IMG/VR virus record: IMGVR_UViG_2585427784_000007
Span: 1 to 6,377 of that record
DNA length: 6,377 nt
DNA from: a virus
Lineage: Duplodnaviria; Heunggongvirae; Uroviricota; Caudoviricetes
Reading direction: 5' to 3' (one strand)
Within the stretch, counting starts at the first letter, position 1. The number at the start of each line of letters is the position of its first letter. Below the pieces are notes generated by a model. It ran no database searches. It was not told where the DNA came from and saw only the letters and a program-made list of their open reading frames with translations. The translations under genes were made by a program, and so were the position numbers. Positions 1 to 6,377 of this stretch are shown here, one piece after another.

Positions 1-483
1 ATGACGAAGAAAAAAGCACATAAACCTGGTTCAGCGCCCACCGCGCTTAACAAGCGCCCCCGTCACGAATACTTTATCGAAGAAGAGTTCGAAGCGGGAC
101 TTGCCCTGCAAGGCTGGGAAGTTAAATCCCTGCGCGCAGGAAAAGCCAATATCAGCGACAGCTATGTCCTTCTGCGTGACGGAGAAGCGTTCCTGTTTGG
201 CGCAAACATCACGCCAATGGCAGTGGCCTCCACGCATGTGGTGTGCGATCCTACCCGTACCCGCAAGTTACTTCTCAACCAGCGCGAACTGGACTCATTG
301 TACGGTCGCGTCAATCGAGAAGGCTATACCGTAGTGGCGCTCTCCCTGTACTGGAAAAATGCCTGGTGCAAAGTGAAAATCGGCGTCGCCAAAGGTAAGA
401 AACAGCACGATAAACGTTCAGATATCAAAGAGCGCGAATGGCAGGTGGATAAAGCGCGTATCATGAAAAACGCCCACCGTTAA
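1..483 (+). CDS. smpB: SsrA-binding protein SmpB (trans-translation factor)
   Basis: 160-aa ORF from ATG at 1 to TAA at 481..483. The translation is near-identical to enterobacterial SmpB as I recall it ([11 protein letters not shown]..., C-terminal basic tail ...[11 protein letters not shown]). The tmRNA gene follows directly, which is the conserved synteny. Confidence 0.97.
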
Positions 484-677
484 ACCTGCACTCCAATTAT
501 TGACCAGTTCCTCACCGCGCCTCCCTCTCCGGCGGCGCGAATGAACATCTTATTGGCTATCACATCCGACACAAATGTTGCCATCCCATTGCTTAATCGA
601 ATAAAAATCAGGCTACATGGGTGCTAAATCTTTAACGATAACGCCATTGAGGCTGGTCATGGCGCTCATAAATCTGG

Positions 678-683
678 TATACT
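678..683 (+). promoter_or_regulatory. Candidate ssrA promoter -10 element (TATACT, with upstream TG giving an extended -10, TGgTATACT)
   Basis: TATACT sits 14 nt upstream of the mature tmRNA 5' end at 698. That spacing fits a transcription start about 7 nt upstream of the mature end, as known for the E. coli tmRNA precursor. No convincing -35 was found. Confidence 0.45.
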
Positions 684-697
684 TACCTTTACACATT

Positions 698-1060
698 GGG
701 GCTGATTCTGGATTCGACGGGATTTGCGAAACCCAAGGTGCATGCCGAGGGGCGGTTGGCCTCGTAAAAAGCCGCAAAAAATAGTCGCAAACGACGAAAA
801 CTACGCTTTAGCAGCTTAATAACCTGCTTAGAGCCCTCTCTCCCTAGCCTCCGCTCTTAGGACGGGGATCAAGAGAGGTCAAACCCAAAAGAGATCGCGT
901 GGAAGCCCTGCCTGGGGTTGAAGCGTTAAAACTTAATCAGGCTAGTTTGTTAGTGGCGTGTCCGTCCGCAGCTGGCAAGCGAATGTAAAGACTGACTAAG
1001 CATGTAGTACCGAGGATGTAGGAATTTCGGACGCGGGTTCAACTCCCGCCAGCTCCACCA
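698..1060 (+). ncRNA. ssrA: tmRNA (transfer-messenger RNA, SsrA / 10Sa RNA)
   Basis: Begins GGGGCTGATTCTGGATTCGACGGG (acceptor stem 5' half) and ends ...GGGTTCAACTCCCGCCAGCTCCACCA (T-arm, acceptor 3' half, encoded CCA). Length is 363 nt, matching E. coli-type tmRNA. It contains the tag reading frame and lies directly downstream of smpB. Confidence 0.96.
787..819 (+). other. tmRNA mRNA-like domain: tag-peptide reading frame encoding ANDENYALAA, then stop
   Basis: GCA AAC GAC GAA AAC TAC GCT TTA GCA GCT TAA read from resume codon GCA at 787. This is the canonical enterobacterial proteolysis tag. Confidence 0.92.
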
Positions 1061-1190
1061 ATCATGATTGGACGGTGTAAGGACAACACCAACAAAAACA
1101 GGAAGTTAGCAGTCTCAGCAGGACACCGACCAGACGGTGAGGAGACAAAAAAGGATACGCAAAGGAGCCGCGGCTCTCAAGTGTGAAAGA

Positions 1191-1216
1191 AGCCCGCAAA
1201 TTGCGGGCTTTTTTAT
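1191..1216 (+). terminator. Rho-independent terminator-like hairpin (AGCCCGCAA / TTGCGGGCT stem followed by TTTTTT)
   Basis: Perfect 9-bp GC-rich inverted repeat with a short loop, followed by a T-tract at 1210..1215. Located about 130 nt after the tmRNA 3' end and about 55 nt before the next ORF. Confidence 0.6.
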
Positions 1217-1269
1217 TGATCAGTCAACAATAAACAGTAACCGAATGAGAATTTAATAAGGATATTCAT

Positions 1270-2301
1270 ATGGAAGCTACTGTGGATTCGATTGATTTTC
1301 TGATCCGTAGTGAAGATGATTTTCTAAACTTTCTGGAAGAAATGAAAGCCCGAGAGGGGCTTGATTCTAAAGAGTTTATTTTCCCTAACGTAAAGTTTGC
1401 AGGCTGGCCATCCTTAGACATAAATGTTAAAGGAGAGCGGTATCATTCATCAATTACATCAGCAATGTTGTTTGGTATGTCAATGCTCAACGAGGAGATA
1501 CAGCGGGCGTTTGCAACCATACGATACGGATCGCAGAATCTTCAACGCTTGACTAATGAAGACAAGCAACGACTTGATATAAATTTTAAAATTAGCGAAG
1601 GTTCTAGTGATGCGGAAGGCACCACTGACAAGATCATCAACGCAGTAACTGATTTTTTGCGAGATACTATGTCTGGACTGAACGGCTGGCAGAAAATGCT
1701 TGTTATAATCACAATGGTTGGCGCGGCCAGCACATGTGGTTATCACTACATTTCAGAAAATGCCGTAACAGAAAGACATGCAACTGATCGACAGGTTGAA
1801 ATTGCAAAAACCACATCCGATGGCATAAACAAAGCCATAGAAGCAACATTAGATTATAAAATCAATGGGAAATCAGCGATTAGCGATAAAGTTACTAGTC
1901 ACGGACAAGCAGGTAAAAGTGCTTTAGTGAAGCAATTAGCTGCTGATCCTACTGTCGAAACCGTGACTTTAGGAAATGAGAAACTAACACGACAAGACCT
2001 AAATACCTACAACAGCCGACAATCTGTAGATAGAGAACGTAAAGAACGAACTGATATATTTTCCATCAAAGGTGTAACCAGAACAGGGCCAACAAATCAG
2101 GATATTAATATTAACGTTGTTAGGGTCTCTAATGACGAATGCTTCACAATCAAAGCTTCAGCTGATGTTATCACCCAAGATGAGTTGACAGCTATTGTTG
2201 ACGCTTTGTCAAACAACTCTCATATTAAAATCAGTTACTTAGAGGTAATTGAAAAGGGTGCTGTTTCTATAGGTCAGTTCAACACTATTGTTTCAGAATA
2301 A
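1270..2301 (+). CDS. Hypothetical protein, 343 aa, with a central moderately hydrophobic segment (residues ~143-161, nt ~1696..1752); function unknown
   Basis: Long uninterrupted ORF with ATG at 1270 preceded by AAGGA (1258..1262) at 7-nt spacing. The gene is visibly AT-rich compared with smpB/ssrA. I recognise no catalytic or nucleotide-binding motif; GQAGKS is not a Walker A motif because the glycine spacing is wrong. Confidence 0.8.
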   Translation: MEATVDSIDFLIRSEDDFLNFLEEMKAREGLDSKEFIFPNVKFAGWPSLDINVKGERYHSSITSAMLFGMSMLNEEIQRAFATIRYGSQNLQRLTNEDKQRLDINFKISEGSSDAEGTTDKIINAVTDFLRDTMSGLNGWQKMLVIITMVGAASTCGYHYISENAVTERHATDRQVEIAKTTSDGINKAIEATLDYKINGKSAISDKVTSHGQAGKSALVKQLAADPTVETVTLGNEKLTRQDLNTYNSRQSVDRERKERTDIFSIKGVTRTGPTNQDININVVRVSNDECFTIKASADVITQDELTAIVDALSNNSHIKISYLEVIEKGAVSIGQFNTIVSE

Positions 2302-2352
2302 TCACTTAACCCCATTTATGTCGGTTGAGGTTATAAGTCACGGAGACCAGAT

Positions 2353-2697
2353 ATGTCCTTAAAGTATGCACATGAAAAATTTCATACTGCAGTACTTACT
2401 CTTGCGGGCCATGGAAGTATTCAAGAACGCTTGATTAATTCGTATGTTTTTAGCCTTGGGCATCTTAAAACAGCCGATGATATTCCAAATGCCTTACAAA
2501 GCAGGTTCGATGAATTATGTAAGGAACTGACTAAGTTTGATGCCACTGGCGATGAGGGGCGAGTTCAAGCAACAGTATCAAAACTTAACGATTTCGAGAT
2601 CAATAAACTGATCGAAGATATTGTCAGTCTTAACGATGATATTTGCATGAAATTGGCTCTGACGGATGAGACTTACCAAGACATACACCAAAGTTAA
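2353..2697 (+). CDS. Hypothetical small protein, 114 aa, probably co-transcribed with the upstream 343-aa gene; function unknown
   Basis: ATG at 2353 preceded by GGAG (2342..2345) at 7-nt spacing. It starts 51 nt after the upstream stop on the same strand, has similar AT-rich composition, and is followed by a hairpin terminator. Confidence 0.75.
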   Translation: MSLKYAHEKFHTAVLTLAGHGSIQERLINSYVFSLGHLKTADDIPNALQSRFDELCKELTKFDATGDEGRVQATVSKLNDFEINKLIEDIVSLNDDICMKLALTDETYQDIHQS

Positions 2698-2724
2698 TTG
2701 ATTAAATTCAAAAAGTTAACGTTC

Positions 2725-2747
2725 AACCAGCCAGTTTTTGGCTGGTT
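2725..2747. terminator. Hairpin (AACCAGCCA-GTTTT-TGGCTGGTT) between convergent genes; likely terminator for the 2-gene cassette and possibly for the convergent 70-aa gene
   Basis: Perfect 9-bp stem with a 5-nt loop, followed on the + strand by a T-rich run (TATTGTCTT). It sits between the cassette stop at 2697 and the minus-strand stop at 2782. Confidence 0.55.
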
Positions 2748-2781
2748 TATTGTCTTATAATATTCTTGCTCGAATGATGCA

Positions 2782-2994
2782 CTATTTATGATGTAATCCG
2801 GACATCAGTTCATGGACAAGATTATCTCTTTCATTGTGTTGCAACCGTAAATGCATAGCAAAAAGGTGAGCACTATCCTCATTCCTCTTCAAGCCATGCT
2901 GTTCAAGATACCCGAAAAAACGGCTTCTCTTATCCGCTATTTCCTGAGTCTGACGTGCAACATTTACCAAATTTTCTAGCGTTTTTCTTGGCAT
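2782..2994 (-). CDS. Hypothetical small protein, 70 aa (copy 1 of 2, identical)
   Basis: ORF with ATG at 2994 on the minus strand. The identical plus-strand copy has a strong AGGAGG Shine-Dalgarno at 7-nt spacing. AT-rich. No family recognised. Confidence 0.7.
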   Translation of the reverse strand: MPRKTLENLVNVARQTQEIADKRSRFFGYLEQHGLKRNEDSAHLFAMHLRLQHNERDNLVHELMSGLHHK

Positions 2995-3192
2995 ACTATT
3001 TCCTCCTGAAATTGTTGTAATTCACTAGGATATTCATTTTAATTTGTATCATTTAGTACCAAAACCGCTATCAATTAACAAAGCCATCGTTGTGGTTTAC
3101 CTTGCAGCCGTTTTTTGTCATTGACTCTATGTGAAAATAATGAATCATCATGAGATTGGCTCACACGTTCTTGAATTCGACGAGCTGTGTCT

Positions 3193-3747
3193 TTATTTAT
3201 CTCCTGCCGGAAACCTCTGATACAAAGTCGATACGCCAACATCATAGATAATCGCAACTTTCTGGCGCGGAACTCCTGATGCAATTAATCGTCCGGCTTG
3301 TGCCCATTGTTCTGGTGTAAGTTTGGGACGACGTCCACCAATTCGTCCCTGTGCGCGAGCAGCTTCCAGTCCAGCTTTTGTTCGTTCAACAATCAGTTCT
3401 CGTTCCATTTCAGCCAGGGCCCCCATCACATGAAAGAAAAAGCGCCCCATTGGGGTACTGGTATCAATTGAATCCGTCAGACTACGAAAGTTGATGCCTC
3501 GTTCGCGCAACTCCTCCACCAGCACGACAAGATGCCGCATACTGCGCCCCAGTCGGTCCAGTTTCCAGACCACCAGCGTATCGCCTGCCGATAATGTCCT
3601 GAGCAGTTTTTTCAGTCCCGGCCTTTCGGACTTTGTACCGCTTATCTTGTCTTCAAAAATCAGCTCGCATCCTGCACAGTTCAGCGCATTACGTTGTAGA
3701 TCTGTGTTCTGGTCATTTGTTGACACACGTACATAGCCAATAAGCAT
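3193..3747 (-). CDS. Site-specific DNA invertase, serine recombinase of the Gin/Pin/Cin/Hin family (copy 1 of 2, identical), 184 aa
   Basis: Translation begins MLIGYVRVSTNDQNTDLQRNAL..., containing the catalytic-serine motif YVRVSTxDQ. It also has the conserved TLVVWKLDRLGRS and SLTDSIDTSTPMGRFFFHVMGALAEMERELIVERT blocks and a C-terminal helix-turn-helix (VSTLYQRF). Size and sequence are closely similar to Mu Gin / e14 Pin as recalled. GGAG lies 7 nt before the ATG. The longer ORF from 3783 is a spurious upstream extension. Confidence 0.94.
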   Translation of the reverse strand: MLIGYVRVSTNDQNTDLQRNALNCAGCELIFEDKISGTKSERPGLKKLLRTLSAGDTLVVWKLDRLGRSMRHLVVLVEELRERGINFRSLTDSIDTSTPMGRFFFHVMGALAEMERELIVERTKAGLEAARAQGRIGGRRPKLTPEQWAQAGRLIASGVPRQKVAIIYDVGVSTLYQRFPAGDK

Positions 3748-3773
3748 GGTAGATCTCCCTGACAAAAGCAGGA

Positions 3774-4181
3774 ATGATGCCATCTGCTCGTTATTTCTGC
3801 ATTTTCATAAACGTTGGTTTGGGAGAAGCGGCAAAAAGGAATGTGGGTAACGGGCAAAACCAAATTCCGGATATGGCGGCGTTTGCCAGTTCACTTTCAT
3901 CAACGGGTTTTCAAAAACTCCCTTCAGGTCTGATTATTCAGTGGGGTATAGTCAGTGGAGCATCAAACTATACGGTGACTTACCCGGTAACATTCCCAAG
4001 TCGTTCACTTGCGCTGTTGGCTGTACCACATACAACGTCGGTGGCGGGTATATCTGCAATGGGCATAGCGAACTGTTCTGATATCAGCAAATCACAGTTC
4101 TATATAATTGTTGGCGGTATATCTCAGGGAGAAATTGTCAAATATGAAAGGTCCTGTTTTTGGGTAGCAATCGGTGTATAG
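3774..4181 (+). CDS. Tail-fibre C-terminal variable (receptor-binding) domain cassette, Sv-like, 135 aa; 5'-truncated with no constant N-terminal tail-fibre region
   Basis: Contains the IIQWG motif and ends ...AIGV, as in tail-fibre C-termini of the Mu/P2/lambda-stf type. The first 18 codons (MMPSARYFCIFINVGLGE) lie inside the repeat and crossover site and are shared with the opposite cassette. An in-frame stop at 3750..3752 and the divergent invertase gene lie directly upstream. AGGA is immediately adjacent to the ATG, so independent translation is doubtful. Confidence 0.7.
   Translation: MMPSARYFCIFINVGLGEAAKRNVGNGQNQIPDMAAFASSLSSTGFQKLPSGLIIQWGIVSGASNYTVTYPVTFPSRSLALLAVPHTTSVAGISAMGIANCSDISKSQFYIIVGGISQGEIVKYERSCFWVAIGV
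3802..3827. other. 26-bp gix/hix/cix-like recombination crossover site (left): TTTTCATAAACG-TT-GGTTTGGGAGAA
   Basis: Imperfect dyad with two 12-bp half-sites around a central TT dinucleotide. It matches the recalled gix (TTCCTGTAAACC GA GGTTTTGGATAA) and hixL sites in the AAAC / GGTTT core. It sits exactly at the inner end of the long inverted repeat, 55 bp upstream of the invertase start. Confidence 0.75.
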
Positions 4182-4189
4182 GTATCTCT

Positions 4190-4585
4190 ATGATTTATTT
4201 CTCAAAATCGACTAATGGTTTTTTCTTTGATGGTATAAACAGCGACATGCCTGCTGACATTGTTGAGATAAGTACAGACTTATACAATGAATTAATTGCC
4301 GGACAGCAGGAAGGGGGTAAATTAATCACGTCAGATGAAAATGGTTTACCGGTACTGAAATCTCCGGCGATTGATTATGTCGCACGTGCTGAAAATCAGC
4401 GAATGCAGTTACTTGCTCATGCCGATAATGTCACAGCTGACTGGCGGGTGGAATTAATGCTTGGTGATATCAGCAGTACAGATAAAGAAAAACTATCTGC
4501 CTGGATGGACTACAAAAAAGAAGTAAAAGCCGTCGACACTTCGACGGCTCCTGAGATTAGCTGGCCTGAGTTACCGGAGGTGTAG
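4190..4585 (+). CDS. Tail fibre assembly protein (Tfa/U-like chaperone), about 131 aa
   Basis: N-terminus MIYFSKSTNGFFFDG... and C-terminal VDTSTAPEISWPELP motif are typical of the phage Tfa family. The ATG at 4190 is 9 nt after the Sv stop. The track ORF starts at a TTG at 4160, which I judge a less likely start. Confidence 0.85.
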   Translation: MIYFSKSTNGFFFDGINSDMPADIVEISTDLYNELIAGQQEGGKLITSDENGLPVLKSPAIDYVARAENQRMQLLAHADNVTADWRVELMLGDISSTDKEKLSAWMDYKKEVKAVDTSTAPEISWPELPEV

Positions 4586-4994
4586 GCCATTCAATATCTG
4601 GAGCACTGGAGGTATCCACCAGTTCCAGTGCGTCCAGGTAATCCAGCCACAAATTATATTGCGCCAGTTCCTCACCTTTCAGACGACCAATAGCGGCTTT
4701 GCCAGGCCATTGCTTACTGTTCATGTATTCGTTGGCCTGATTAAGCAATAATTGCCTTTCTGATTCTGCCTGTTGAATAAGTTCTTCATGCGATGGTGGA
4801 GGTATTAGTGCCCATGTGGGTAATCCATTTTTTCCTGCAACACGAATTTTGTCATCTGGAGGCGTATTGACTGCAAATTCATTATAAACATCATCACTGA
4901 CAGCCAGAGCATCATCTGGCCATGAATTTGCATTAATGTAATCATCCTTAAGTGCAGGATTCACAAAAATGTTTAAAGATGGACTATAAAACAT
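4557..4994 (-). CDS. Tail fibre assembly protein (Tfa/U'-like chaperone), 145 aa, second allele
   Basis: N-terminus MFYSPSLNIFVNP... and C-terminal VDTSSAPDIEWPTPP motif. The ATG at 4994 is 1 nt after the Sv' stop, with AGGGG 6-10 nt upstream. Its 3' end overlaps the convergent Tfa gene by 29 bp. Confidence 0.85.
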   Translation of the reverse strand: MFYSPSLNIFVNPALKDDYINANSWPDDALAVSDDVYNEFAVNTPPDDKIRVAGKNGLPTWALIPPPSHEELIQQAESERQLLLNQANEYMNSKQWPGKAAIGRLKGEELAQYNLWLDYLDALELVDTSSAPDIEWPTPPVTQAS

Positions 4995-4995
4995 A

Positions 4996-5385
4996 TTACA
5001 CCCCTATAGCGATATAACGACCTAATACAGCGTTTGCAGCAGTCGCTATGCTTGAAAAACCGCGGAACTGATTTGATGTAATTGCAGAAGCCGACAGGAT
5101 TCCTGCGCCTGAAGGTGTATGCCCCACATGACTAACTATCATTCCATAACATGCTGACGGAAAGGCAAAAGGAAAATCATTAAGATATCCGGCATCTTCA
5201 CCACCAGACCCACCAAATCTCGCCTGCCCCCACTGAATAATCAGTGTTCTCCGGGAACCTGAAATAATTAACGGAATCGTTACATACCCATTCAGACCAA
5301 TGACACCCGATGCAGTGCCAGCCAGAGATAATTCTCCCAAACCAACGTTTATGAAAATGCAGAAATAACGAGCAGATGGCATCAT
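4996..5385 (-). CDS. Tail-fibre C-terminal variable (receptor-binding) domain cassette, Sv'-like, 129 aa; 5'-truncated with no constant N-terminal tail-fibre region
   Basis: Shares the crossover-encoded N-terminus MMPSARYFCIFINVGLGE with the opposite cassette, then diverges. Contains IIQWG, a glycine-rich stretch and a ...AIGV C-terminus. The divergent invertase gene lies directly upstream. Confidence 0.7.
   Translation of the reverse strand: MMPSARYFCIFINVGLGELSLAGTASGVIGLNGYVTIPLIISGSRRTLIIQWGQARFGGSGGEDAGYLNDFPFAFPSACYGMIVSHVGHTPSGAGILSASAITSNQFRGFSSIATAANAVLGRYIAIGV
5332..5357. other. 26-bp gix/hix/cix-like recombination crossover site (right), exact reverse complement of the left site
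   Basis: TTCTCCCAAACC-AA-CGTTTATGAAAA at the inner end of the right repeat arm, 55 bp upstream of the plus-strand invertase start. It is in inverted orientation relative to the left site, as required for inversion. Confidence 0.75.
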
Positions 5386-5411
5386 TCCTGCTTTTGTCAG
5401 GGAGATCTACC

Positions 5412-5966
5412 ATGCTTATTGGCTATGTACGTGTGTCAACAAATGACCAGAACACAGATCTACAACGTAATGCGCTGAACTGTGCAGGATGCGAGCTGAT
5501 TTTTGAAGACAAGATAAGCGGTACAAAGTCCGAAAGGCCGGGACTGAAAAAACTGCTCAGGACATTATCGGCAGGCGATACGCTGGTGGTCTGGAAACTG
5601 GACCGACTGGGGCGCAGTATGCGGCATCTTGTCGTGCTGGTGGAGGAGTTGCGCGAACGAGGCATCAACTTTCGTAGTCTGACGGATTCAATTGATACCA
5701 GTACCCCAATGGGGCGCTTTTTCTTTCATGTGATGGGGGCCCTGGCTGAAATGGAACGAGAACTGATTGTTGAACGAACAAAAGCTGGACTGGAAGCTGC
5801 TCGCGCACAGGGACGAATTGGTGGACGTCGTCCCAAACTTACACCAGAACAATGGGCACAAGCCGGACGATTAATTGCATCAGGAGTTCCGCGCCAGAAA
5901 GTTGCGATTATCTATGATGTTGGCGTATCGACTTTGTATCAGAGGTTTCCGGCAGGAGATAAATAA
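5412..5966 (+). CDS. Site-specific DNA invertase, serine recombinase of the Gin/Pin/Cin/Hin family (copy 2 of 2, identical), 184 aa
   Basis: Identical translation to the minus-strand copy at 3193..3747. GGAG at 5401..5404 lies 7 nt before the ATG at 5412. Catalytic serine motif and C-terminal helix-turn-helix as above. Confidence 0.94.
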   Translation: MLIGYVRVSTNDQNTDLQRNALNCAGCELIFEDKISGTKSERPGLKKLLRTLSAGDTLVVWKLDRLGRSMRHLVVLVEELRERGINFRSLTDSIDTSTPMGRFFFHVMGALAEMERELIVERTKAGLEAARAQGRIGGRRPKLTPEQWAQAGRLIASGVPRQKVAIIYDVGVSTLYQRFPAGDK

Positions 5967-6164
5967 AGACACAGCTCGTCGAATTCAAGAACGTGTGAGC
6001 CAATCTCATGATGATTCATTATTTTCACATAGAGTCAATGACAAAAAACGGCTGCAAGGTAAACCACAACGATGGCTTTGTTAATTGATAGCGGTTTTGG
6101 TACTAAATGATACAAATTAAAATGAATATCCTAGTGAATTACAACAATTTCAGGAGGAAATAGT

Positions 6165-6377
6165 ATGCCAAGAAAAACGCTAGAAAATTTGGTAAATGTT
6201 GCACGTCAGACTCAGGAAATAGCGGATAAGAGAAGCCGTTTTTTCGGGTATCTTGAACAGCATGGCTTGAAGAGGAATGAGGATAGTGCTCACCTTTTTG
6301 CTATGCATTTACGGTTGCAACACAATGAAAGAGATAATCTTGTCCATGAACTGATGTCCGGATTACATCATAAATAG
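6165..6377 (+). CDS. Hypothetical small protein, 70 aa (copy 2 of 2, identical)
   Basis: ATG at 6165 preceded by AGGAGG (6152..6157) at 7-nt spacing; stop TAG at 6375..6377. Identical to the minus-strand ORF at 2782..2994. Confidence 0.72.
   Translation: MPRKTLENLVNVARQTQEIADKRSRFFGYLEQHGLKRNEDSAHLFAMHLRLQHNERDNLVHELMSGLHHK

What the first reader, a model, noticed from the sequence alone, without database searches (positions are those of the whole stretch)
1217..2752. AT-rich two-gene cassette of unknown function directly downstream of ssrA, a candidate novel defence or toxin-immunity module
Two same-strand ORFs (343 aa, then 114 aa after a 51-nt gap) each have a good Shine-Dalgarno, and the pair is bracketed by hairpin terminators at 1191..1216 and 2725..2747. 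Composition is clearly more AT-rich than smpB/ssrA, consistent with horizontal acquisition. The large protein has a central hydrophobic stretch of about 19 residues (~143-161) that could be a single membrane anchor; the small protein looks helical and acidic. I recognise no known domain in either. The ssrA 3' flank is a classic integration and defence-island hotspot, and a large effector with a small partner is a recurrent layout for abortive-infection and toxin-antitoxin pairs. This is inference from context only. No promoter was convincingly identified in the 55 nt between the terminator and the ATG.
Basis: inference. Interest (0 to 1): 0.7.

Follow-up and report, generated by a model that had tools for sequence, protein, structure and literature searches.

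The report
Prophage accessory membrane protein beside ssrA
The two genes after ssrA are real cargo at the edge of a prophage, but only the large one belongs to a big uncharacterised family of phage membrane proteins found in slots that usually hold anti-phage genes, and the small one is a local add-on rather than its partner.

Summary
Both ORFs, their ribosome-binding sites, both hairpins, the low GC content and the central hydrophobic helix are present as described.

The cassette lies inside an e14-like prophage of about 36 kb integrated at ssrA, at the end next to the Pin invertase. It occurs in 46 of 5426 complete E. coli genomes.

The "pair" idea fails. ORF343 belongs to a large, uniform family with no annotation: 837 clusters at 50% identity, no Pfam or PADLOC hit, only PHROG 6191 of unknown function. 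Family members occur alone. Most sit directly downstream of CI-type repressors, which is the rexAB/bstA slot. Others sit at prophage ends, or in the G–protease slot of Mu-like prophages where anti-CRISPR genes lie.

ORF114 is found only beside near-identical E. coli copies of ORF343. It is absent from the 81–82% identical relatives in Mangrovibacter and Cronobacter. In one genome it is truncated while ORF343 stays intact.

ORF343 is predicted to have a conserved N-terminal domain, one transmembrane helix, a helical stalk and an acidic OB-fold.

My best reading is a membrane exclusion or defence protein expressed in lysogens. That function is inferred, not shown. Interest is moderate.

The parts
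1029..1060 (+). 3' end of ssrA, which acts as the attachment-site core repeat.
   Evidence: ARAGORN places the tmRNA at 698-1060. The last 32-35 nt recur at the far end of the prophage in strain 0-4 (L012 16528-16562). They also occur as a 36-45 nt orphan copy upstream of the spacer in L016, L005 and L017.
1061..1220 (+). Spacer after ssrA, including the intrinsic terminator at 1186-1214.
   Evidence: The hairpin folds at -19.3 kcal/mol, z = -5.75. A version 88-93% identical follows ssrA in 4170 of 5426 E. coli genomes. Versions 79-90% identical precede the ORF343 homologues in Cronobacter, Mangrovibacter and L020.
1270..2301 (+). ORF343, a member of a large uncharacterised family of prophage accessory proteins (PHROG 6191).
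   Evidence: Supported. It has no Pfam, NCBIfam or PADLOC hit.
1390..1689 (+). Most conserved part of the ORF343 N-terminal domain (residues 41-140), carrying the GWPxLxINVKG and EGSS motifs. It is presumed to be cytoplasmic.
   Evidence: This is the best-conserved region across 72 diverse members. AF2 pLDDT is about 70. No fold match was found.
1696..1752 (+). Predicted single transmembrane helix of ORF343 (residues 143-161).
   Evidence: The hydrophobic segment is conserved in position in 98 members, and 74% reach a Kyte-Doolittle mean of at least 1.6. It forms a helix in the AF2 model.
1957..2298 (+). C-terminal OB-fold domain of ORF343 (residues about 230-343; confidently modelled from 255). 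It is acidic.
2353..2697 (+). ORF114, a small acidic helical protein restricted to this E. coli prophage lineage. It is not a conserved partner of ORF343.
   Evidence: Only 6 clusters were found, all at least 84% identical apart from truncated or fused variants. There is no hit in sequenced phages. dN/dS is 0.15. It is absent next to more distant ORF343 homologues.
2575..2600 (.). Secondary (pseudo) Pin recombination site inside ORF114.
   Evidence: In L063 the segment 2587-3815 is inverted, which fuses ORF114 at about residue 79 to the antisense of the pin start. The site shares AACG(A/T)TT with the gix core.
2725..2747 (.). Hairpin between the convergent genes ORF114 and ORF70. It could terminate transcription in both directions.
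   Evidence: Supported.
2782..2994 (-). ORF70, a small basic protein (pI 9.4) downstream of pin. It has the same distribution as the cassette.
   Evidence: Supported. It occurs in the same 46 genomes. It is absent in Mangrovibacter.
3193..3747 (-). Gene for a Pin-type serine invertase. It marks the tail-fibre end of the prophage.
   Evidence: Resolvase plus HTH_7 domains. It is annotated pinE in strain 0-4.
3802..3827 (.). gix-like crossover site at the edge of the invertible tail-fibre segment.
   Evidence: It forms the inner end of the 1046-nt perfect inverted repeat. The sequence was read directly.

Best explanation
ORF343 is a stand-alone accessory ('moron') gene carried at the ssrA-proximal end of an e14-like prophage.

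It encodes a membrane protein with a single transmembrane helix. The predicted parts are a conserved N-terminal domain of about 135 residues (presumed cytoplasmic), one transmembrane helix, a helical stalk, and a more variable acidic C-terminal OB-fold (presumed periplasmic).

It is probably made in the lysogen. In this window that would be by read-through of the ssrA terminator. In its many lambdoid relatives it would be by co-transcription with the CI repressor.

I think the most likely function is at the cell envelope, protecting the lysogen from other phages. This could be superinfection exclusion at or after DNA entry. It could also be envelope sensing by the OB domain, coupled to the cytoplasmic domain.

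ORF114 is a separate gene restricted to this lineage. Together with ORF70 it was inserted between ORF343 and pin. It is not an antitoxin or immunity partner.

Shown here: gene reality, prophage location, family size and uniformity, the synteny patterns, lack of co-occurrence with ORF114, the OB-fold, and the conserved hydrophobic helix.

Inferred only: membrane topology, expression in lysogens, and the anti-phage function.
For: Prophage location:
- In strain 0-4 the region runs ssrA, cassette, pin, tail, head, lysis, regulation, integrase, and then a 32-35 nt repeat of the ssrA 3' end.
- In L016 only the 36-nt att repeat precedes the spacer and ORF343, so these travel with the element.

Family:
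- PHROG 6191 matches at E = 8e-38 over the full length.
- There are 76 close clusters.
- An exhaustive profile search finds 837 clusters at 50% identity, almost all 315-360 aa with full-length matches.
- All named members are called hypothetical.

Accessory slots:
- Homologues lie directly downstream of, and on the same strand as, S24/HTH repressors in phi458 and PhiR12, metagenomic lambdoids and Moraxella phage Mcat17.
- The same is true in P. syringae.
- It also holds for 12 of the 23 upstream neighbours scanned in IMG/VR, where the repressor alleles are only 16-65% identical to each other.
- Other members sit at provirus edges, convergent with the integrase.
- Others lie between gpG and the protease in Mu-like prophages, which is the anti-CRISPR slot (PMC3993853).
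- In e14 the slot between pin and the attachment site holds mcrA.

Stand-alone status:
- Mangrovibacter has ssrA, spacer, an 81% identical ORF343 homologue, pin and the tail-fibre segment, with no ORF114 or ORF70.
- Cronobacter has the 82% homologue without ORF114.

Architecture:
- AF2 model and OB-fold match.
- The transmembrane helix is conserved.
- The N-terminal domain is the most conserved part and the C-terminal part is more variable.
Against: - There is no functional data of any kind, and no homology to any known exclusion or defence protein. PADLOC gives nothing for ORF343 or for 72 relatives. hhalign against RexA and RexB gives 0.3% probability.
- Location in moron slots is also compatible with functions unrelated to phages, and the Mu-like slot is best known for counter-defence genes.
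- The positive-inside rule does not settle the topology: K+R counts are 2.15 versus 2.20 on the two flanks.
- In this particular protein the helix is only moderately hydrophobic, at 1.41.
- No promoter was found, so expression is assumed.
- The full-length model has pTM 0.32, and the N-terminal domain fold is unassigned.
Confidence: 0.45

Rival explanations
1. ORF343 is a lysogenic-conversion or regulatory factor with no anti-phage role. One possibility is a transmembrane one-component sensor, with a periplasmic OB-fold as input and a cytoplasmic domain as output, that tunes prophage induction or host envelope physiology. Another is a fitness factor comparable to lambda Bor or Lom.
For: The same evidence for accessory-gene status and membrane architecture applies. 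Tight linkage to CI repressors of many immunity types would also suit a protein that acts on the lysis-lysogeny switch. The acidic OB-fold most resembles periplasmic ligand-binding OB proteins such as SilF/CusF, YgiW and AB5 toxin B subunits.
Against: The gene also occurs far from any repressor, at prophage ends and in Mu-like head operons. That argues against a dedicated role in the switch. No DNA-binding or known signalling domain was found.
Confidence: 0.3
2. ORF343 and ORF114 form a two-gene toxin-immunity or abortive-infection pair, with the small acidic protein neutralising or regulating the large effector.
For: The two genes are adjacent on the same strand, 51 nt apart, between two hairpins. 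They co-occur in all 46 E. coli genomes that carry them. They also occur together in an 87%-identical variant with a different downstream neighbour, a SRAP/YedK gene (L011). Both genes are under purifying selection.
Against: - ORF114 is absent next to the 81-82% identical homologues in Mangrovibacter and Cronobacter, and next to every cI-linked, integrase-linked or Mu-like copy examined, which is more than 50 loci.
- ORF114 has only 6 clusters in 5.8 billion proteins, against hundreds for ORF343.
- In E. coli GCA_042170565.1, ORF114 is truncated at about residue 79 by an inversion while ORF343 remains full length.
- Neither protein matches a known toxin or antitoxin family.
Confidence: 0.08
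3. ORF343 is a counter-defence or host-takeover protein that benefits the phage during infection, rather than protecting the lysogen.
For: In Mu-like prophages of Pseudomonas, Salinicola and Halomonas, family members occupy the G-protease slot. That slot holds anti-CRISPR operons in P. aeruginosa Mu-like phages (PMC3993853).
Against: Most members sit in the repressor operon or at prophage ends behind terminators. These are positions expressed in lysogeny rather than early in infection. A membrane protein of about 340 aa is unlike known small soluble anti-defence proteins; this last point rests on my own knowledge.
Confidence: 0.1

Closest known systems
Lambda RexAB and Salmonella BTP1 BstA, which are defence genes co-transcribed with the prophage repressor
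   Same: Homologues of ORF343 occupy the same slot, directly downstream of cI on the same strand and before N (PMC8585504). Like rexAB and bstA, they are optional cargo with no role in phage structure.
   Different: There is no sequence or profile similarity to RexA or RexB and no KilA-N domain as in BstA. ORF343 is a single gene with one transmembrane helix, whereas RexAB is a soluble sensor plus a four-helix membrane protein. In this window the gene is at the attachment-site end of the prophage, not next to the repressor.
AbiP (Lactococcus) and PdpSau (S. aureus prophages), which are membrane-anchored abortive-infection proteins with an OB-fold
   Same: Each is a single accessory protein carried on a prophage or plasmid that combines one membrane helix with an OB-fold domain (PMC10127798).
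   Different: AbiP and PdpSau have an N-terminal anchor and a positively charged cytoplasmic OB domain that binds nucleic acid. ORF343 has a central helix after a conserved 140-residue N-terminal domain, and its OB domain is acidic (pI 4.9) and presumably periplasmic.
e14 McrA, and prophage-end morons in general
   Same: In the related prophage e14, the slot between the Pin invertase and the attachment site carries a defence gene. The cassette in this window is in the equivalent slot.
   Different: McrA is a soluble HNH type IV restriction enzyme and is unrelated in sequence and architecture.
Classical envelope superinfection-exclusion proteins (T4 Imm and Sp, P22 SieA, HK97 gp15, lactococcal Sie2009). 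This comparison rests on my own knowledge.
   Same: They are inner-membrane proteins encoded by phages or prophages, expressed in the lysogen or early in infection, and they block incoming phage at the envelope.
   Different: Those proteins are small (about 80-170 aa) and have no large conserved cytoplasmic domain or OB-fold. No homology was detected in Pfam, PHROGs or PADLOC.

Membership tests
PHROG 6191 (phage protein family of unknown function) | A full-length, significant match to the family profile. | tested here: met
   E = 8.4e-38, residues 7-340 aligned to profile positions 5-331 of 338.
Prophage accessory ('moron') gene | Lies inside a prophage, is optional among related phages, sits at module boundaries, and has a composition that differs from its flanks. 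| tested here: met
   It lies inside the ssrA prophage. It is present in 46 of 5426 E. coli genomes. Relatives occur in three different accessory slots. GC is 0.36-0.43 against 0.50-0.54 in the flanks. It is bounded by hairpins.
Lambda RexAB-type exclusion system | Homology to RexA or RexB. | tested here: not met
   hhalign of the 72-sequence profile against lambda RexA and RexB gives 0.3% probability for each.
Lambda RexAB-type exclusion system | Position directly downstream of cI, co-oriented with it. | tested here: inconclusive
   This holds for many homologues but not for the copy in this window, which is at the attL end of the prophage.
Toxin-antitoxin or toxin-immunity pair | The two genes co-occur across diverged homologues. 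| tested here: not met
   ORF114 occurs only beside E. coli copies of ORF343 that are at least about 94% identical at the nucleotide level. It is absent in Mangrovibacter, Cronobacter and all other contexts.
Toxin-antitoxin or toxin-immunity pair | The small partner cannot be lost while the large gene stays intact. | tested here: not met
   In L063, ORF114 is truncated and fused at about residue 79 while ORF343 is intact at 343 aa. The caveat is that this is a single genome and the N-terminal 79 residues remain.
Toxin-antitoxin or toxin-immunity pair | Homology to a known toxin or antitoxin domain. | tested here: not met
   Pfam, NCBIfam and PADLOC give no significant hit for either protein.
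Known anti-phage defence systems (PADLOC-DB v2.0.0) | A match to any model of a defence protein. | tested here: not met
   No hit for ORF343, ORF114 or ORF70. Among 72 diverse family members there were only two isolated weak hits. Systems described after 2023 were not covered.
AbiP/PdpSau membrane-anchored OB-fold abortive-infection proteins | One membrane helix plus an OB-fold domain. | tested here: met
AbiP/PdpSau membrane-anchored OB-fold abortive-infection proteins | An N-terminal anchor with a basic, cytoplasmic OB domain that binds nucleic acid. | tested here: not met
   The helix is central (residues 143-161) and the OB region is acidic, with pI 4.9 and net charge -4. The features of PdpSau are taken from PMC10127798.
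AbiP/PdpSau membrane-anchored OB-fold abortive-infection proteins | Sequence or structural homology to AbiP or PdpSau. | not tested
T2SS GspM / PilO-like proteins (the GenBank label on the PhiR12 homologue) | A Pfam T2SSM match, a short N-terminus, a transmembrane helix and a ferredoxin-like C-terminal domain. | tested here: not met
   No Pfam hit in ORF343 or in 72 relatives. The C-terminal fold is an OB barrel. The N-terminal domain is 140 residues long.

The most novel reading that the evidence does not exclude
The ORF343 family may be a widespread, previously unrecognised class of single-protein transmembrane immunity device carried by prophages. In this reading, a variable periplasmic OB-fold detects an incoming phage at the envelope, for example the tail tip, the ejected tape-measure protein, or damage to the peptidoglycan or membrane. 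The conserved cytoplasmic N-terminal domain then carries out exclusion or abortive infection. The family would rival RexAB and BstA as a standard occupant of the repressor operon across Gammaproteobacteria.
Probability: 0.2. Interest if true: 0.75.

Novelty: new variant of a known kind. Interest (0 to 1): 0.5.

Why it matters
If ORF343 is an exclusion or defence protein, it adds a large family to the repertoire of prophage immunity genes. The family has at least 837 clusters at 50% identity. It was found here in Enterobacterales, Pseudomonas, Halomonas, Salinicola, Pseudoalteromonas and Moraxella. It has no Pfam, PADLOC or PDB relative, and its architecture (cytoplasmic domain, transmembrane helix, periplasmic OB-fold) is not described for such systems.

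The family sits in three textbook cargo slots: the repressor operon, the prophage ends, and the Mu G-protease slot. This makes it a well-justified and cheap candidate for phage-challenge screens.

The analysis also removes a tempting but wrong reading. The neighbouring 114-aa gene is not the partner of ORF343.

Tried and rejected
- **Domain searches.** Pfam, NCBIfam and PADLOC on ORF343, ORF114 and ORF70 gave nothing significant. The weak GrpE, lmo0673 and AlgK hits were far below cut-off. Pfam and PADLOC on 72 diverse relatives also gave nothing.
- **PDB sequence search.** The family profile and ORF114 produced only chance hits, E > 0.6.
- **ORF114 structure.** The AF2 model has pLDDT 49.5 and is unusable, so no fold search was run on it.
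- **RexA/RexB homology.** Rejected.
- **'T2SS GspM' label on the PhiR12 homologue.** Rejected, because there is no Pfam support and the fold is an OB barrel.
- **L010.** At first this looked like a locus with different genes upstream of ORF114. It proved to be the same sequence with a 1-nt indel that splits ORF343, possibly an assembly error.
- **Topology.** The positive-inside rule was uninformative.
- **Promoter.** No sigma-70 consensus site was found upstream of ORF343 in the window or in four homologous loci.
- **Literature.** Searches for accession numbers, the PHROG id, phi458, PhiR12 and the cI-N region found no description of the family.
Full report
**1. What is in the window**

smpB is at 1-483 and ssrA at 698-1060, with the tag peptide ANDENYALAA. 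After ssrA come the following features:
- a 160-nt spacer ending in a strong intrinsic terminator at 1186-1214 (-19.3 kcal/mol, z = -5.75, followed by a U6 run);
- ORF343 at 1270-2301;
- a 51-nt gap;
- ORF114 at 2353-2697;
- a hairpin at 2725-2747 (-15.2 kcal/mol, with a weak U tail, lying between convergent genes);
- ORF70 on the minus strand at 2782-2994;
- a Pin-type serine invertase gene;
- an invertible tail-fibre segment (Gp53-like_C and Caudo_TAP domains).

GC falls from 0.50-0.54 in smpB/ssrA to 0.36-0.43 across the cassette. Both ORFs have good ribosome-binding sites.

**2. Both ORFs are real genes**

ORF343 has 76 close protein clusters. ORF114 has only six, and apart from truncated or fused variants they are at least 84% identical. 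Compared with an 87%-identical copy (L011), dN/dS is 0.15 for ORF114 and 0.07 for the last 94 codons of ORF343.

**3. The cassette lies inside a prophage**

In the complete genome of E. coli strain 0-4 the cassette is 100% identical to the window. It is followed by pinE, tail fibres, baseplate, sheath and tube, head, terminase, lysis and regulatory genes (ymfK/ymfL/ymfT, yfdN-R), then an integrase and three further cargo genes. After these comes a 32-35 nt repeat of the ssrA 3' end. This is an e14/CPS-53-like prophage of about 36 kb integrated at ssrA, and the cassette sits at the end next to the invertase.

In provirus L016 only the 36-nt ssrA repeat precedes the spacer and ORF343, so these travel with the element.

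A spacer-like sequence 88-93% identical follows ssrA in 4170 of 5426 E. coli genomes. In the island-free strain YJ6 it lies between ssrA and ypjA. So the usual ssrA 3' flank looks much like this spacer, and the prophage brings its own version, including a terminator for ssrA.

The cassette occurs in 46 of 5426 complete E. coli genomes, always at 99.5% identity or more and always with both genes. ORF70 occurs in the same 46 genomes.

**4. ORF343 belongs to a large, uniform family with no annotation**

- Pfam, NCBIfam and PADLOC give nothing.
- PHROG 6191, of unknown function, matches the full length at E = 8e-38.
- An exhaustive profile search of 1.84 billion cluster representatives finds 837 at E ≤ 1e-3 and 481 at E ≤ 1e-10. 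Almost all are 315-360 aa and match end to end.
- None of 72 diverse members has a meaningful Pfam or PADLOC hit.
- Named members are all 'hypothetical protein'. They come from Enterobacterales, Pseudomonas, Halomonas, Salinicola and Pseudoalteromonas, plus a Moraxella phage.

**5. Where the family sits**

(a) *Directly downstream of a CI-type repressor, on the same strand.*
- Sequenced lambdoid phages phi458 and PhiR12_1-5 have the order cI, homologue, N.
- Metagenomic lambdoids have an S24 repressor, then the homologue, then N.
- The same arrangement is seen in Moraxella phage Mcat17.
- It is also seen in a P. syringae prophage whose homologue is only 24% identical.
- In IMG/VR, 12 of 23 scanned upstream neighbours carry Peptidase_S24/HTH domains. 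These repressors are only 16-65% identical to one another, so the linkage survives exchange of immunity type.
- This is the rexAB/bstA slot, a known hotspot of mosaic diversity. [quoted passage not shown]

(b) *At provirus edges.* Some members are convergent with a lambda-type integrase. Others, as in this window, lie between the ssrA attachment site and the invertase. In the related prophage e14, the slot between pinE and the attachment site holds mcrA, a type IV restriction enzyme.

(c) *In Mu-like prophages.* In Pseudomonas sp. 8Z, Salinicola and Halomonas the gene lies between the gpG homologue and the protease. In P. aeruginosa Mu-like phages this is the anti-CRISPR region (PMC3993853).

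All three are classical cargo slots. The gene is not part of any structural or replication module.

**6. ORF114 is not a conserved partner**

- Mangrovibacter yixingensis has ssrA, the spacer, an 81% identical ORF343 homologue, the invertase and the tail-fibre segment. It has no ORF114 or ORF70.
- Cronobacter has an ssrA 3' repeat, the spacer and an 82% homologue, and no ORF114.
- No cI-linked, integrase-linked or Mu-like copy has an ORF114 relative. ORF114 has no hit in 50,697 phage records.
- ORF114 does stay with ORF343 in one diverged variant (L011, 87% nucleotide identity) that has a SRAP/YedK gene downstream instead of ORF70 and pin. So there is local linkage, but only among near relatives.
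- In E. coli GCA_042170565.1 the segment 2587-3815 is inverted. This cuts ORF114 at about residue 79 while ORF343 stays intact.

**7. Architecture of ORF343**

The AF2 model (26-sequence alignment, mean pLDDT 68, pTM 0.32) shows four parts:
- an α/β N-terminal domain, pLDDT about 70;
- a long helix at residues 139-167;
- two further helices up to residue 225;
- a confident C-terminal β-barrel with one helix, pLDDT 83-93.

The hydrophobic segment is conserved in position (median start at residue 133). Its hydrophobicity is also conserved: the median Kyte-Doolittle mean is 1.77, and 74% of 98 members reach at least 1.6. It is therefore very likely a transmembrane helix.

There is no signal peptide and the N-terminal domain is 140 residues long, so an N-in/C-out topology is the default. 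The positive-inside rule does not decide the matter (2.15 versus 2.20 K+R).

The OB region is acidic, with pI 4.9. This argues against nucleic-acid binding and fits a periplasmic location.

Residues 41-140 are the most conserved part across the family, and the C-terminal half is more variable. No polar residue is invariant, and only G55, L94, G111 and M137 exceed 90% conservation. This does not look like an enzyme active site.

**8. Mechanism**

*Shown:* ORF343 is optional prophage cargo. It has a conserved predicted single-helix membrane architecture and recurs in slots that are expressed in lysogens.

*Inferred:* it is made in the lysogen and acts at the envelope against superinfecting phages. 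In lambdoid relatives it would be transcribed from the repressor promoter. In this window it would most plausibly be transcribed by read-through of the terminator of the very strongly expressed ssrA gene, because no promoter is detectable in the window or in four homologous loci. The variable OB domain would act as the recognition module and the conserved N-terminal domain as the output.

I give this reading 0.45. The structural and accessory-gene part alone would merit about 0.85.

The rivals are a sensor or fitness factor unrelated to phage (0.3), a counter-defence role (0.1) and the original pair model (0.08).

**9. Comparison with known systems**

ORF343 resembles RexAB and BstA in position only. 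hhalign against RexA and RexB gives 0.3% probability.

It resembles AbiP and PdpSau in combining a membrane helix with an OB-fold (PMC10127798). However, it differs in helix position, OB charge and probable compartment.

The 'T2SS GspM' label on the PhiR12 homologue is not supported.

ORF343 is best filed as a new variant, meaning a new family and architecture, within the known kind 'prophage accessory membrane proteins in defence slots'.

**10. Caveat on the window itself**

Positions 2782-3827 and 5332-6377 form a perfect 1046-nt inverted repeat. Window 4561-6377 is the reverse complement of the ORF70–pin–gp53C–TAP block of strain 0-4. As a result the invertible segment is flanked by pin on both sides and lacks the constant part of the tail-fibre gene. 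This is most likely an assembly fold-back at the gix inverted repeats. It does not affect the cassette.

Noticed in passing
window 2782-3827 and 5332-6377: These two stretches form a perfect 1046-nt inverted duplication of ORF70, pin and the gix site, running to the window end. The invertible tail-fibre segment is therefore flanked by pin on both sides and has no constant tail-fibre part. Complete genomes such as strain 0-4 have the normal order. This is probably an assembly fold-back at the gix inverted repeats rather than real biology.
   Followed up: partly
window 2575-2600 (inside ORF114) and 3802-3827; locus L063 4560-5788: In E. coli GCA_042170565.1 the 1.2-kb segment holding the ORF114 3' end, ORF70 and pin itself is inverted. 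The junctions lie at a gix-like sequence inside ORF114 (GTATCAAAACTTAACGATTTCGAGAT) and at the true gix site. The two share AACG(A/T)TT and match at 14 of 26 positions. It looks like a Pin-mediated inversion at a secondary site that truncates ORF114.
   Followed up: partly
window 2782-2994 (-): ORF70 is a 70-aa basic protein (pI 9.4) with a strong ribosome-binding site, lying just downstream of pin on the same strand. It occurs in exactly the same 46 E. coli genomes as the cassette and is absent from the Mangrovibacter prophage. It has no family hit.
   Followed up: partly
L012 14508-16378 (strain 0-4, far end of the same prophage): Three minus-strand cargo genes lie between the integrase and attR. 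They encode a 198-aa protein of unknown family, a DUF4325 STAS-like protein (107 aa) and a 302-aa protein with a weak HATPase_c_2 match. None has a PADLOC hit. This is a second uncharacterised cargo cluster in the same prophage.
   Followed up: partly
window 1061-1220: The 160 nt after ssrA, including its terminator, occur at 88-93% identity in 4170 of 5426 E. coli genomes. Only the genomes that carry the cassette hold the full stretch at about 100% identity. In the island-free strain YJ6 the sequence sits between ssrA and ypjA. The prophage therefore carries a diverged copy of the host's ssrA 3' flank in its attachment region.
   Followed up: partly
NZ_CP148395.1 (2637 bp, labelled as a plasmid) and L010 (2676-nt contig): The cassette also turns up as a stand-alone record of about 2.6 kb. 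It runs from the ssrA spacer to the gix site, both of which are repeated in these genomes. These records are probably unplaced assembly fragments, not plasmids.
   Followed up: no
L075 5001-6029, L077 5001-6029, L074 5001-6047: Distant family members lie between the Mu gpG homologue and the head protease in Mu-like prophages of Pseudomonas sp. 8Z and Salinicola. In Halomonas the member lies next to a gpG remnant. This is the slot known for anti-CRISPR operons in P. aeruginosa Mu-like phages.
   Followed up: partly
L004-L006 (Cronobacter dublinensis), 1-5600: The same chromosomal site (ssrA repeat, spacer, ORF343 homologue) is preceded in different strains by different mobile elements. One is a CP4-57-like island ending in CbtA/CbeA. 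Another is a P2/186-like prophage ending in an integrase. This shows serial tandem integration at ssrA.
   Followed up: no
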